Shown: one piece after another, positions 27,972 through 36,343 of the stretch
How positions within the stretch are numbered: position 1 is the first letter of the stretch
Layout of the letters: every line of letters starts with the position of its first letter
Source: Sphaerodactylus townsendi
Taxonomy: Eukaryota
Length of the DNA stretch: 64,000 nucleotides
Direction of reading: 5' to 3'
Assembly: GCF_021028975.2 (NCBI RefSeq)
Contig: NC_059426.1
Location: forward strand, 22,940,001-23,004,000
Program-made: the position numbers and the translations under genes
The notes under the pieces: model-generated
Databases searched by the model: none
Seen by the model: the letters and a program-made list of their open reading frames with translations, nothing else
What the model was told of the DNA's origin: nothing

Positions 27972-29175
27972 TATAACTAATCCTCAGGAGCATTTACAAC
28001 TTTCCTTAGGACCCTGGAAGTCTGCATTAAACAATTACAGTACAAGCCTTGTTATCTGGCACTGTAATATCCAGAAAATGTGGTTAACCAACATGCAGAA
28101 TAACCAGCTTGGCTTGTGGGGTTAGTGGGTAGGGAGAACAGACAGTGAGATGCCATTGCAGTTGAAGGAAAGCAGTAGGAGGAGTCTGAGGAAAGGGTTA
28201 GAGAAAGGTAAGGCAAACCAGTGGCAGAGACCCTGATACATGTAGACCAACACCTTCTATGTCGACTGGCAATGGTGACCTAAGGCCACAGGCCTTTCCC
28301 CTGGACCCATTTAATATACCATTGGCTGAACTGTGGGACACTGTCCTCATCCCCAGACCTCCTATCAGTTGGGAATTCTCACCACCAACAAAGCTACAAT
28401 TAAGTATTAAATCAAACACTGACATTAGATGAAGTCAAGGCTAACCAGGACAACAATCAGGAACTTAAAGCAACTTCAAATCTTGATTTGACACATGAGC
28501 TTAAAGAAGAATCCTGATTAACCTTAACTTCAGCCAAGGTCACTGCTAATGCTTCCCTTAACTTGTTTTTGAGAGTGGGAGTGTTACACAAGAGCTTTAC
28601 AGAAACTACTATGCTGTTATACTTCTACATAAGCTCCGTGCATATTTAAGAGAACAGCTGTCTTATTTAGTCTGAAGGATTCCCTTTTATCTCAAAGCCA
28701 CACCCACACATTGACCATACTGTAATTCTATCAAATACAGCTAAAGCATCCTGCTCTTTGGGTATAACTAGGAAGTCTATAAGGGCCTTTTGTGGCAGTG
28801 AAATTATGTAAAAAAAAACAAACATTACGGTAGGCAAGGGGGGCAGCATAACACATGTCTCCTCAGAACCCAACAGAGAGGTACCTTTAAAGATGTTACA
28901 TTAAAAGGGTTTCAGAAAAGAACAAAACATTACAGCTATGGAACTGTATGTGTTGGATTTGTTAGCAAAGCAACACAACAATAAAACTAATTACTGTTAT
29001 TACCTGCCGTGGGTCCCACTGTGGCATGGGAGAAAGGTGGTTTACAAATGTTTCAATAAATACAGAGAAACAAAACTTCACTTAGTTGGCCTATGAAGTC
29101 TAACATGCCAGTTCTGATGTTAAGGTACAACATGATGGAGAACACGAATATTGAAATGTGCAGTTTTCCACTTAC

Positions 29176-29882
29176 CTCTTCCATCTCAAAAGAGTCCTTC
29201 TGCTGTAGCATGAGACTGACAATGGATGGGTTTGCTATCAGAATGCAGGGTTCCTTATCCGGTGGTGATGTAGGAAGCACAGGCAGCTCAGAGTTGCCCT
29301 CAAGACCACAAGTGCCCAAGGCAGGCATTTCGCTCTCCATCCTGGACGAGCTTGTAATACCAGCTTGCTCCCTAGGTCTATCTGAATGACCAAAGGAGTC
29401 CTTATTTTGCTCAGCTTCAGAAGGCATGTGGTCGCTTTGCAATCCTTGTGCAACGTTAGAGTCAGAAGAAAGTTCAGAAGCATGAAGAACATCCACAGTG
29501 CTTGGCTGATTACCAGGTACCTCCTCTTTTACTGTAGCCAGCAAAGTTGTTTTGAAGTGCTTTGGTGTTTTGGGTTCGTTTTTAGTGTCACAGTCCTCAA
29601 ACTGTCCGTTTTCAGCTTTCCCCTTTTCAACCGGCGAAGGCGTAGAACAGCTGCCCGCTTCACCTGCCTGCTGGTTCCCACAGAGGTTGAGTTTAGATAA
29701 GGTCTTCATCAAACGGCTCGCAGTGTTGCTTCGGGTTAGAGGCGGCGGGTTGGCTGGCTCTTTGCTGGAAGCCGTTGAATTCATGCTCCCAATTTTCTGC
29801 AACGGGGTGCCAGAAACTTGCGAATATAAGGAAGAGAATGCATTGGCCACAGTAGTGAGAACTTCAATTTGACGAAAGCGAC
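29176..29882 (-). CDS. ITPRID2: ITPRID2 coding exon 8 (707 bp)
   Basis: ccctgccag|GT CGC TTT CGT CAA... encodes RFRQIEVLTTVANAFSSLYSQVSGTPLQKIGS...PPPLTRSNTASRLMKTLSKLNLC...QQKDSFEMEE|gtaagt. It is the core of ORF 29053..30084. Confidence 0.96.
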
Positions 29883-30839
29883 CTGGCAGGGAGACAAAAC
29901 AGATGACAAACCGAACAATGGATGGCATTGTAAAATTCAGCCATGAAGCTACAAATGATTTGGAACTGGCAAAGGTGAAAGAGCAACCACACAAAAGCAG
30001 AGAAGAGTTCAGTTTCTCACACCAAGAAAACTTGGCTGAAACACATTGATAGCTTCGAGTTTCAGACATTTTGTTAAAACACAAGTCTGAACTTTAAAGG
30101 AAAAGAGTCCCTCTTCAAAGGAAATCTGTTTTCTCAAAGTGACTGCCAGACAGATTTCATACTTCCATTTCTTTTTCGATCACTACCGTCAACACTCACA
30201 CCTACTAAACTCCACTGGTGCTGAGGAACCATCTTTGGAAAGAAACTATACATTGGATCCAGGCAATGGATCATGGAGAGACTGTAAATCTTCCCAGCCT
30301 TCCTGTTTCCCCCAGATCTTTTTCAAGTCCAGGAAATTTTCTCCTCAGGTTGTGGGAGCCACATAGAGTAAAAGCTACATGGTACACAGGGAACACCAGG
30401 GAGAAATCATTCATCCTCATACACCAGGAGCTCCACTCTTGGAAGAAGCTACGAGTCACGTTGCCCACCTCCTCCTACAACCTCCCAATCTACACAGCTG
30501 TTACTACACATGGGTCCTGCAACTCCAACTCCATGTAGCTGGAAAAGATTGTTTCTGGGAGGAAATAACTAAGAAGATGGCTCTAACATACAAGGTATAT
30601 TTCCAATTATGTGCCTAAGAATTTCAAAGGTATAGAAGCAGAAGGAATTTTTTGTGATGTAGGTAAAAAGCGGGCAGAGAGCTTCTACACCCTTTGCCCA
30701 CACAAATCCTTACGTTCTCTTCCTTTCATCCCCTTCTCCATTGAGTCCAGCCCCTTCATCTCTATCAAGACAGCTCTTCTCCCTTTTAATTCATTTATTC
30801 CCCATGAAATCATCTTATTTATCTATTTCATTTAGGAAT

Positions 30840-33522: not shown

Positions 33523-33914
33523 CTGAACATGCAAAAGAATCAAGAGTAGTAAGGCAATAAGTTTCTTTTCTTCCTAAGGGGTTCAAGATTATCTTATTTC
33601 CATTTCCTTAAGGGTTCACCACTGTCACATGAACAAGGTCAACACTCTTGACTAAAACATGCCCTTGGAGTACTCAGTCCATCCACATAAAAGGAAGTAG
33701 GAGTCCTCCCAAACCCTCTATTCTCTTGCATCTTCTCTCCTCTGGTATTTTCTCTGCTGAGAAGAAGAAGAAGAGTTGGATGTATATCCCCCCTTTCTCT
33801 CTTGTAAGGAGACTCAAAGGGGCTTACATACTCCTTTCCCTTCCCCCCTCACAACAAACACCCTGTGAGGTAGGTGGGGCTGAGAGAGCTCCAAAGAACT
33901 GTGACTAGCCCAAG

Positions 33915-34443
33915 ATTATTCTGGTTCCTAAATATACAACTATATTTATATATTTGTATTTAATGATTGTGCCTAAAGTGGCTGAAGAAGACATAACAGT
34001 CGAAAGTATTGGTTTTTTCCCCGGATCAATACTCCCACCTTCTATTGACCACCAGCCAAGGATTTCTCCATCAACATCCTGATGTTTGGTACGTTCATCT
34101 ATAAGAACATGAAGCTCATCCATGGAAGTTGAGTATTTACAGGCATCAGACAGTTGCTATCCTTCACATCCACACCATTAGTGGATCTCTTTCAAAGTGA
34201 TACCTTTATTACAGAGACTTGATATTATTGTGTTTGGGATCCCCTTTGTGGGTTTTATTCATTGTTCTGTTGTTGTTATTTATAATATGTATACTTTGTT
34301 GTTGATTAAGAGTTGTAGTTCTGTTATATAAACATTTTAATTATTTTAATTAAAGACAGAGTTTTAAAGTTCGCACTAGAGTCAGACAGGTTTTTTTCCC
34401 TTCTATAAATTAGATGCTGTCTCTGGCTCATTAGATATTTTTT
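33915..34443 (+). mobile_element. 529-bp non-coding hammerhead-bearing insertion (Penelope-like pLTR or retrozyme-like)
   Basis: Flanked by the direct repeat ACTAGCCCAAG (33904-33914 and 34444-34454). It splits a SINE that resumes exactly after it, and it contains a hammerhead. Confidence 0.75.
33978..34038 (+). ncRNA. Type-I hammerhead ribozyme (predicted intact)
   Basis: GTGG-CTGAAGA-A-GAC[ATAACA]GTC-GAA-AGTATTG[gttttttccccggat]CAATACT-C-CCAC: stems I, II and III, full conserved core, CUC cleavage triplet at 34032-34034. Confidence 0.75.
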
Positions 34444-34945
34444 ACTAGCCCAAGGTCACCCAGCTGGCATGTCTTGGCGTGCACAAGCTAATCTAGTTCA
34501 CCAGATAAGCCTCCACAGCTCAAGTGGCAGAGCAGGAAATCAAGCCCAGTTCTCCAAATTAGAGCACACCTGCTCTTAACCACTACACGATGCTGGCTCT
34601 GGGGTTTTGTTTCACTTCCAGGGAACTGCCCCAAATGTCTTCCCATATCTAATGAATATGGAAATGACTCTGTTCTATATTTTTGGCACAGTTTCCTTCC
34701 AGGGTCTGATTTCTGTAGTTCAGGTCTCAGACCACAAATGGAACACTTTCACCACCTCCAGTGAGTCACATGACAGCAGCAAGGAGGGCACCCTTAGAGC
34801 CTGGACTTCTAGGCCTCACCCAGCAGAACCAGCTGCTGGACCACAGCATGAAGTCCTGAATGTGTCCAGAGACTCATACTGAAAGCCCAGGAGGAAGGCT
34901 TTGGGTTCAAACATCCATTCTGTTGTAAAGCATGTTGGGTTACAC

Positions 34946-35518: not shown

Positions 35519-36343
35519 CTGAAAAGGGAAACAATACATATAAATTTCCTGCACTGTAATATAAATAACCACGAACAAATAGCAACTACTTGGTCCAATA
35601 ATAAACAGTACAGTTCCTTTCAGCCTGTACACTGGCGCTGTAAACTCATACGGTACATGCAGCCAACTTCATATATTAGCACACGTGAAGCTGCCTTATA
35701 CTGAATCAGACAGTGTCTATTTAGAGAGACAGCAACTCTCCAAAATCTCAGGTAGAGGTCTTCTACATTACCTATTGCTTGGTCCTTTTGACTAGAGATA
35801 CCAGGGATCGAACCCGGGGCCTTCTGCATGCCAAACAAAGACTCTACCATTGATCCATCACCCCTCCCAAACATACTGGATGAGGATTAAGAACACACAG
35901 GAAGCTTGCACAGGAAACGTTTCTAGGGTCAAGTTGAGGGACACTGATGTACAAGGACAAAGAGTCAGGAGACATGAGGAGGAGACTGTCCTCCCACAAT
36001 TCTCTGTGAAAAGACAACCATCTCCTCCCTTATTTGTGAGATAAGACTGAGCAACTGGAATGGCCAGCCAATCCCAAGGACTAACATAATGCTGAGCCTA
36101 CCGTATCAAGGATCAAAGTTGATCTGAATATTAACAGTGTGTACGGTTTAGAATATACCCGGCACAACTGTCACCCCTGCCTCCTACCCTTTGAAAAGTG
36201 TCTCTGTGTTCCTCTGATATCTGAAGAGCCAACTGAGGCAGGGCAGAGGGAACTAGCTTTTCAAAGACTTGATGAACGATGGCACTACTGCTGTTCATGG
36301 GGCATGTATTCAGTGCCAACTTCCGTTATGGTGACTTCTCAAA

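What the first reader, a model, noticed from the sequence alone, without database searches (positions are those of the whole stretch)
33904..34454. Young 529-bp non-coding mobile unit carrying a ribozyme: candidate reptile retrozyme or solo Penelope pLTR
Seen in sequence: the insert splits a SINE precisely and is bounded by a perfect 11-bp TSD (ACTAGCCCAAG). It has no TIRs, no tRNA head, no poly-A tail and no credible ORF. It contains a hammerhead followed by a long AT/T-rich tract. Being nested in a SINE makes it younger than that SINE. Inference: a small catalytic-RNA retroelement mobilised in trans by a Penelope-like RT/GIY-YIG endonuclease, possibly through a self-cleaved or circular RNA. 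I cannot tell from this window whether the family has been described.
Basis: partly seen in the sequence, partly recalled or inferred. Interest (0 to 1): 0.7.

Follow-up and report, generated by a model that had tools for sequence, protein, structure and literature searches.

The report
Spliced Penelope end in SINE hotspot
This 529-base insert is the ribozyme-bearing end piece of a Penelope-type jumping gene, a known kind, in a gecko; it lacks the element's intron exactly, so it was likely copied from spliced RNA, and its family lands at a mirror-image DNA motif that one very common short repeat happens to carry, which takes about a third of the sampled insertions.

Summary
In detail: an exact 11-bp duplication, a 529-bp ORF-less insert and an intact type I hammerhead. 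'Young' and 'retrozyme' do not hold. Other copies are at best 89-92% identical and have scattered 5' ends; longer ones run straight into an RT + Zn-linker + GIY-YIG frame. The insert is the 5'-truncated pseudo-LTR plus tail of a Neptune-type Penelope-like element. (1) It lacks a 106-bp GT-AG intron exactly. None of 22 intron-less copies has the ORF upstream, against 11 of 21 intron-bearing ones, so intron-less copies likely come from the RNA's spliced 5' leader. (2) 20 of 62 sampled insertions hit this same site in the CORE domain of a Squam3 SINE, in both orientations. Non-SINE targets share a palindrome, CTGGG-N15-CCCAG, with a modal duplication of 15 bp; the SINE matches 9 of 10 positions. 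I did not find this motif in three literature searches. The scan has already noted palindromic Penelope targets in other genomes and spliced Penelope copies elsewhere in this genome. All mechanism is inferred from DNA.

The parts
33760..34600 (-). Host SINE, Squam3 (B-type, CORE-SINE with CTT tail), split by the insert inside its CORE domain
   Evidence: Empty site collinear with window copies; CORE segment matches the Squam3B consensuses in PMC7983390 supplement 1
33899..33903 (+). Left arm (CTGTG) of the palindromic target, consensus CTGGG-N15-CCCAG
33904..33914 (+). Left copy of the 11-bp target-site duplication; its last two bases (AG) also fit the element (microhomology); 4 bp shorter than the modal 15
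33915..33961 (+). Remnant of pLTR exon 1, 5'-truncated about 75-85 nt short of the furthest start seen in intron-less copies
33961..33962 (+). Exon-exon junction: a 106-bp GT-AG intron present in other copies is missing exactly
33978..34038 (+). Type I hammerhead motif with an intact core, 3-bp stem II and a long (7-8 bp) stem III; predicted cut after 34034
   Evidence: sequence; same stems in a 70%-identical sister family
34039..34413 (+). Body of the pLTR, AT/T-rich in its 3' half
34414..34443 (+). Optional ~30-bp PLE 'tail': family 3' ends cluster at insert positions 495-499 (34 ends) and 520-529 (63 ends)
   Evidence: tail signature as in PMC11167929
34444..34454 (+). Right copy of the target-site duplication
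34459..34463 (+). Right arm (CCCAG) of the palindromic target

Best explanation
The insert is the 5'-truncated, intron-less pseudo-LTR and tail of a Neptune-type Penelope-like retroelement, likely reverse-transcribed from the spliced 5' leader of the element's RNA into a staggered cut that the element's GIY-YIG endonuclease is predicted to make at a palindromic site in a Squam3 SINE. Steps: (1) shown: the sequence continues, in longer copies, into an RT + CxxCxxC linker + GIY-YIG frame. (2) Shown: this copy lacks a GT-AG intron exactly; inferred: it was spliced, and transcription starts in the pLTR about 80 nt upstream of the insert's first base. (3) Shown: the family's targets fit CTGGG-N15-CCCAG with a modal duplication of 15 bp, in both orientations; inferred: a paired enzyme nicks both strands at the inner edges of the arms, leaving 15-nt 3' overhangs. 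(4) Shown: two 3' end clusters 30 nt apart; inferred by analogy with PAc: reverse transcription starts inside the RNA at the tail. (5) Inferred: the cDNA stopped early and joined through a 2-nt microhomology after 4 nt of the overhang were lost, giving 11 bp. The copy is likely dead on arrival; the hammerhead is inherited cargo whose activity is untested.
For: Family of at least 485 candidates (40 scored, 51 matches). Upstream of L004 and L006/L032 lie the endonuclease and RT frames with YIDD, a CxxCxxC linker and CCHH-type cysteines. The sister-family frame L124 hits RVT_1 at 1.7e-9. 38 of the 120 listed homologues carry GIY-YIG PF01541, and the family's own endonuclease frame aligns to one at 5e-18. 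Inverted partners occur in 38 of 192 loci (redundant loci included) and 3' ends are bimodal, as described for PLEs. Intron: 106 bp, GTAAGT...AG. ORF upstream in 0 of 22 intron-less rows against 11 of 21 intron-bearing rows (two classed by eye); without the five fetched by an ORF query, 0/21 against 6/17, p 0.0045. The six longest intron-less copies all begin within about 10 nt of each other. Target: 23 of 70 3' ends, 20 of 62 insertions, meet the SINE at position 0/1 or, reversed, 14/15; 10 of 1500 random window positions pass a looser test. 13 of 15 non-SINE duplications match the palindrome at 7 or more of 10 positions, against 0.4% of random positions, and arm spacing peaks at 15. Held-out ends: 15 of 39 against 5.9 expected, p 3e-4 (one of the 39, L113, was in fact in the training set). 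The genome holds 139,090 CTGKG-N15-CCCAG matches against 3,797 for the reversed control, mostly this SINE among the first 100 listed; the exact SINE 19-mer occurs 80,186 times.
Against: No full-length copy with a pLTR in front of the ORF was found, so the leader origin and the transcription start are inferred from copy boundaries only. Flanks were mostly 1.5 kb, and less for some copies, so distant ORFs could be missed. The palindrome was read from the same 15 targets on which it was first scored; 2 of 15 do not fit. Duplications were called for only 35 of 106 ends. This copy's duplication is 11, not 15. The sample came from exact patterns and best BLAST hits, which favours less diverged copies. 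Pfam found nothing on the family's own broken frames and no GIY-YIG on L124. No phylogeny against named Neptune elements was run. Hammerhead stem I is not predicted to form in the whole insert.
Confidence: 0.8

Rival explanations
1. A self-propagating, non-autonomous solo-pLTR family: intron-less copies are themselves transcribed and re-mobilised in trans, like a SINE.
For: Intron-less copies are numerous (22 of 52 rows), have their own duplications, and several start near one place.
Against: Intron-less and intron-bearing copies interleave in the tree, with mean distances 0.120 within and 0.129 between, and no close pairs. 5' ends vary.
Confidence: 0.08
2. A non-LTR retrozyme: a tandem hammerhead unit that makes circular RNA and is reinserted as monomers.
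For: Type I hammerhead with an intact core and a stable stem III. One tandem array of four hammerhead-bearing 200-bp units exists. 4 of 25 independent copies end 5-6 nt behind the predicted cut against 2 in the 72 nt before it, p 0.002. Reptile retrozymes derived from pLTRs are reported.
Against: The array's units differ by 0-1 base and all carry AAAA for GAAA, which fits local duplication of a dead copy. No permuted or head-to-tail 529-bp unit in 192 loci. The insert does not begin or end at the cut site. The strict motif is intact in only 9 of 40 copies. The stops behind the cut also coincide with the 3' edge of stem I and may be RT stalls.
Confidence: 0.04
3. The element homes to Squam3 specifically (recognising more of the SINE, or its RNA), rather than to a short palindrome that the SINE happens to carry.
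For: A third of sampled insertions sit at one SINE site. A sister subfamily hits the same site (L188, L189).
Against: Two thirds of insertions are elsewhere and share the palindrome. The SINE supplies most of the genome's best matches, enough to explain the share without homing.
Confidence: 0.06
4. One SINE-PLE chimera was amplified as a unit, so the shared site reflects a single event.
For: Many copies have the same SINE sequence right after their 3' end.
Against: Both orientations, at least four different 3' ends, many different 5' ends, different SINE subfamilies, and duplications of 11-16 bp and one of 19.
Confidence: 0.02

Closest known systems
Neptune-clade EN+ Penelope-like elements (Craig et al. 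2021, bioRxiv 10.1101/2021.04.23.441226 = PMC8557442; passages read)
   Same: [quoted passage not shown]
   Different: There the linker is hypothesised to bias Neptune toward microsatellites; here targets are a GC-rich palindrome with a 15-bp centre. There intron retention is stressed and called unexplained; here intron-less genomic copies are about as common as intron-bearing ones and are never seen behind the ORF.
PAc, Poseidon of Anolis carolinensis (Frangieh et al. 2024, PMC11167929; parts 1-2 of 4 read)
   Same: Lizard PLE; two RT start sites that give the tail; both strands cut and extended; predicted dimer; hammerhead not needed for insertion.
   Different: Other clade (no Zn linker); prefers AT-rich ATT sites; its ORF starts inside the hammerhead; no palindromic target in the parts read.
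Penelope of Drosophila virilis (Schostak et al. 2008, PMC2377424, passages; Cervera and De la Pena 2014, PMC4209133, part 1 of 4 and passages)
   Same: Internal promoter in the pLTR, short 5'-UTR intron ending just before the hammerhead, most transcripts spliced.
   Different: Intron 75 bp and 46 bp from the start, against 106 bp and an inferred 125-135 nt here; genomic copies are described as retaining the intron; its hammerhead has a short palindromic helix III, here helix III is 7-8 bp.
Animal non-LTR retrozymes (Li, Clavereau, Pollet 2026, bioRxiv 10.64898/2026.07.22.740005; parts 1-3 of 5 read; supplements not seen)
   Same: Non-coding, type I hammerhead, derived from PLE pLTRs, present in reptiles.
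   Different: Defined by two or more consecutive units with complete hammerheads; this is a single truncated unit, and the family's only array has broken cores.
Squam3 SINE (PMC7983390; passages and supplement 1 part 1 of 2)
   Same: The host repeat: tRNA head, CORE segment, CTT tail, very abundant in geckos.
   Different: No mention of it as a Penelope target in the parts read.

Membership tests
EN+ Penelope-like element (pLTR of) | Contiguous with a frame encoding RT and C-terminal GIY-YIG endonuclease | tested here: met
   L004, L006/L032, L036, L040-L042 run from the ORF stop into the insert's sequence; RVT_1 hit on the sister family; GIY-YIG by homologues and alignment, not by a direct Pfam hit
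EN+ Penelope-like element (pLTR of) | Type I hammerhead in the pLTR | tested here: met
   conserved stems in the sister family
EN+ Penelope-like element (pLTR of) | 5' truncation, inverted partner copies and optional 30-40 bp tail | tested here: met
EN+ Penelope-like element (pLTR of) | Partial tandem, with a pLTR also in front of the ORF | tested here: inconclusive
   no full-length copy among the longest fetched; all are 5'-truncated or inverted
Neptune clade | [quoted passage not shown] | tested here: met
   (CGKCRAC; YLISCTCPALYVG), definition; shared with Nematis
Neptune clade | RT phylogeny with named Neptune elements | not tested
   no named reference sequences were fetched; Repbase and Dfam are not held
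Non-LTR retrozyme | Two or more tandem units, each with a complete hammerhead | tested here: not met
   one array in 192 loci, core broken in all four units
Non-LTR retrozyme | Circular RNA monomer made by self-cleavage | not testable with these tools
   needs RNA
Independent non-autonomous retroelement (SINE-like) | Fixed 5' end and own clade of copies | tested here: not met
Squam3 SINE (host) | tRNA head, CORE fragment, CTT tail | tested here: met
   sequence against published consensuses read by eye; subfamily not aligned formally

The most novel reading that the evidence does not exclude
This Neptune-type element is a sequence-specific retroelement. A paired RT-endonuclease reads a 25-bp palindrome, cuts it into 15-nt 3' overhangs and primes from either or both, and the CORE domain of one SINE has become a sink for a third of its insertions. 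Its spliced 5' leader is copied as dead short inserts while only the pLTR behind the ORF keeps the intron, which would explain why Penelope elements retain introns without needing an antisense template.
Probability: 0.5. Interest if true: 0.65.

Novelty: new variant of a known kind. Interest (0 to 1): 0.45.

Why it matters
As an object the insert is ordinary: one of hundreds of decayed Penelope end pieces. Its family, however, speaks to two open points about these telomerase-related elements. First, why genomic copies keep introns is called unknown, and an antisense template was proposed to explain it (PMC3846280, passages). Exact intron loss in about half the informative copies argues that spliced sense RNA is copied, and the split between ORF-linked intron-bearing copies and ORF-less intron-less copies gives a testable rule. 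Second, it supplies a defined, symmetric substrate for an endonuclease class so far shown only with loose AT-rich or microsatellite preferences; the substrate can be tested in vitro and could matter for targeted insertion tools. The scan has noted both themes on other DNA, so this is a sharp further case rather than a first sighting.

Tried and rejected
Rfam at gathering and E-value thresholds found no hammerhead family; the motif was placed by hand. Free folding of 126 nt gave no signal against shuffles. The 83-aa minus-strand frame has no Pfam match, and the PDB sequence search gave nothing meaningful. The Atlas look-up gave no result. One search's pattern included bases that the target can supply, so its loci were left out of the SINE-site count, which uses only; they were used in the duplication calls. 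My first reading of the target, a 13-bp centre with GTGAC arms, was replaced by CTGGG-N15-CCCAG once non-SINE targets were aligned. Searches for a full-length element with a leading pLTR failed (one search had no match). Sequencing runs: no RNA holder listed. Contigs of four runs from four coded organisms hold family sequence and the flanks, but break inside the SINE, so presence or absence at this locus, and polymorphism, stay open. Literature searches for a palindromic or SINE target of Penelope elements and for spliced genomic copies showed none in the listings. One paper with the phrase 'palindromic target' (PMC12910113) did not show that passage among the 12 returned. Subscription papers (for example Arkhipova 2003 and 2006), Repbase, Dfam and bioRxiv supplements were not seen and may describe the family or spliced copies. 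No earlier scan note matched this sequence or place.

Full report
Observation. ACTAGCCCAAG occurs exactly at 33904-33914 and 34444-34454 with 529 bp between. Joining the flanks restores a SINE collinear with uninterrupted window copies. Its central segment matches the CORE part of published Squam3B consensuses and it ends in a CTT tail (PMC7983390 passages and supplement 1 part 1); it lies on the minus strand, about 33760-34600. The insert has no terminal inverted repeats, no Rfam family and no credible ORF. A type I hammerhead can be read directly: stem I 33978-81/34035-38, CUGAAGA, one extra A, a 3-bp stem II, GAAA, a 7-8-bp stem III and CUC with the cut after 34034. Rfam misses it and free folding gives z 0.03. 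Support comes from core identity and from the same stems with different loops in a 70%-identical sister family. By a strict rule 9 of 40 family copies keep the motif, this one among them.

Family and age. The insert has 485 candidates in the own genome; 40 were scored, giving 51 matches, the best other copy 89% over the full length and 92% over 252 bp. Among 24 aligned copies this one is 4.7% from the majority, the closest pair differs by 5.9% and the mean is 12.6%. It is younger than its host SINE by position but is not a recent insertion. The animal is a gecko (source label of P0001, identical to a frame of this genome). Contigs of four other runs hold the family but break inside the SINE, so presence at this locus elsewhere is open.

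Identity. In L004 and L006/L032 the DNA upstream of the insert's sequence is the end of a frame with RT motifs, a CxxCxxC linker and a GIY-YIG domain with two internal cysteines. The family's own frames are broken and gave no Pfam hit. A 516-aa open frame of the sister family hits RVT_1 at 1.7e-9; 38 of its 120 listed homologues carry GIY-YIG PF01541, and the family's endonuclease frame aligns to one of these at 5e-18. The linker marks Neptune or Nematis (passage); only Neptune and Poseidon were reported in vertebrates; no tree was run. 5' ends are scattered, 38 of 192 loci (redundant ones included) have an inverted partner, and 3' ends fall in two clusters 30 nt apart, 34 ends at 495-499 and 63 at 520-529. 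These are the published marks of PLE insertions, including the tail made by internal RT initiation. The insert is therefore a 5'-truncated pLTR with tail.

Not a retrozyme. The definition asks for tandem units with complete hammerheads. One array exists in 192 loci: four 200-bp units differing by 0-1 base, all with AAAA for GAAA, which fits local duplication of a dead copy. No permuted unit was seen. One result leans the other way: 4 of 25 independent copies (26 matches, two of them duplicates) stop 5-6 nt behind the predicted cut, against 2 in the preceding 72 nt (p 0.002). That may reflect cleaved RNA, or RT stalling at the 3' edge of stem I.

Intron loss. Other copies carry 106 bp or more, GTAAGT...AG, between 33961 and 33962; this copy joins the two sides exactly. 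Of 52 rows that reach this point, 22 lack the segment (21 insertions), 21 have it (19 by script, 2 by eye) and 9 were not classed: three have a secondary insert at the junction, one a secondary repeat, one is the sister family, and the rest are truncated or array units. The ORF lies upstream in 0 of 22 intron-less and 11 of 21 intron-bearing rows. Leaving out the five fetched with an ORF query gives 0/21 against 6/17, p 0.0045 (the 17 include one copy truncated inside the intron). The six longest intron-less copies (L002, L008, L027, L092, L096, L097) start within about 10 nt of each other, some 75-85 nt upstream of the insert's first base and about 185 nt behind the ORF stop. The two classes interleave in the tree. 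Inference: transcription starts in the pLTR, as in D. virilis Penelope, where most transcripts are spliced; the leader intron is spliced; RT starts internally at the tail and copies only the leader, giving short dead inserts; copies from the pLTR behind the ORF keep the intron. No full-length copy with a leading pLTR was found, and no RNA was examined.

Target. 70 distinct 3' ends came from two internal patterns that stop short of the junction (all 49 matches, and 30 of the 63). 23 of them meet the Squam3 site at position 0/1 or, in reverse, 14/15; a 24th fits by eye. Merging seven inverted pairs and one apparent segmental duplicate gives 20 of 62 insertions; 10 of 1500 random window positions pass a looser test. 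The junctions differ in orientation, 3' end, 5' end and SINE subfamily, so these are separate events. Duplications were called for 35 of 106 ends, 27 insertions. The 15 outside the SINE site have a modal length of 15 bp (8 of 15) and 13 match CTGGG-N15-CCCAG at 7 or more of 10 positions, against 0.4% of random positions; the right arm peaks at a spacing of 15. Because the motif was read from these targets, it was retested on other non-SINE ends: 15 of 39 show the right arm against 5.9 expected, p 3e-4 (one of the 39 belonged to the first set). The SINE site scores 9 of 10. CTGKG-N15-CCCAG has 139,090 matches in the genome against 3,797 for the reversed control, mostly the SINE among the first 100 listed, and the exact SINE 19-mer occurs 80,186 times. 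The hot spot is thus explained by a palindrome preference plus the SINE's abundance. Inference: paired endonucleases nick at the inner edges of the arms, leaving 15-nt 3' overhangs; PAc is predicted to be a dimer and cuts both strands. In this copy 4 nt were likely lost and the join used the shared AG, giving 11 bp.

Comparison and novelty. The element works like, and by the tested features belongs to, the EN+ Penelope-like elements, most likely Neptune; it fails the retrozyme and independent-SINE tests. Published preferences in what I read are AT-rich DNA for PAc and microsatellites for Neptune and Naiad. Searches for a palindromic or SINE target and for spliced genomic copies showed none, but subscription papers, Repbase, Dfam and bioRxiv supplements were not seen. 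Earlier scan notes report palindromic PLE targets with 12-bp centres in other genomes and spliced PLE copies in this genome. They are unchecked. I had the intron loss and the SINE hot spot before reading them, and they moved me from 'SINE site' toward 'general palindrome', which I then tested here.

Verdict. A real feature; a terminus of a known kind of element, with two family traits that appear undescribed in the papers searched. Interest 0.45.

Noticed in passing
L007:792-1518, L021 (minus strand, about 476-1499), L060 (minus strand, about 80-1102): Three family copies carry different 0.7-1.0 kb secondary inserts exactly at the exon-exon junction, with similar starts and a shared TA-rich end; the ends look Helitron-like (label recalled, not tested). 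The spliced junction may be a hot spot for another element.
   Followed up: partly
L082:2010-2810 (G000:C2 near 20.607 Mb): Four near-identical 200-bp head-to-tail units, each with a hammerhead whose GAAA is mutated: a pLTR-derived minisatellite that a retrozyme pipeline with a loose filter could call.
   Followed up: yes
window 34035-34041 and copies L022, L023, L025, L029, L057, L094, L102, L179: A minority of copies have their 5' end 2-6 nt behind the predicted hammerhead cut, at the 3' edge of stem I.
   Followed up: partly
just upstream of window 33915 in longer copies, and 34422-34432: The 9-mer just upstream of the insert's first base is the reverse complement of part of the tail. Several intron-less copies (L007, L010, L011, L013, L143, L171) start there, and L007 has an inverted tail piece joined at it, which suggests that two cDNAs primed from both nicks anneal there.
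   Followed up: partly
L124:5012-7420 (G000:C7), L182, L184, L186, L188-L192: Sister Neptune-type families (70-80% identical) exist; L124 keeps a 516-aa open frame and its own hammerhead, and L188/L189 hit the same Squam3 site.
   Followed up: partly
L154: One insertion falls in the Squam3 head near the B box, at a second, weaker palindrome (7 of 10 by eye).
   Followed up: no
window 33962-34081: An ATG lies one base behind the splice acceptor and opens a 39-codon frame through the hammerhead; significance unknown.
   Followed up: no
window 35793-35864 (-): Rfam tRNA match at 36 bits, probably a SINE head or tRNA pseudogene.
   Followed up: no
window 29053-30093 (-): 346-aa stop-free frame, probably a large exon of a host gene; the insert may be intronic.
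   Followed up: no
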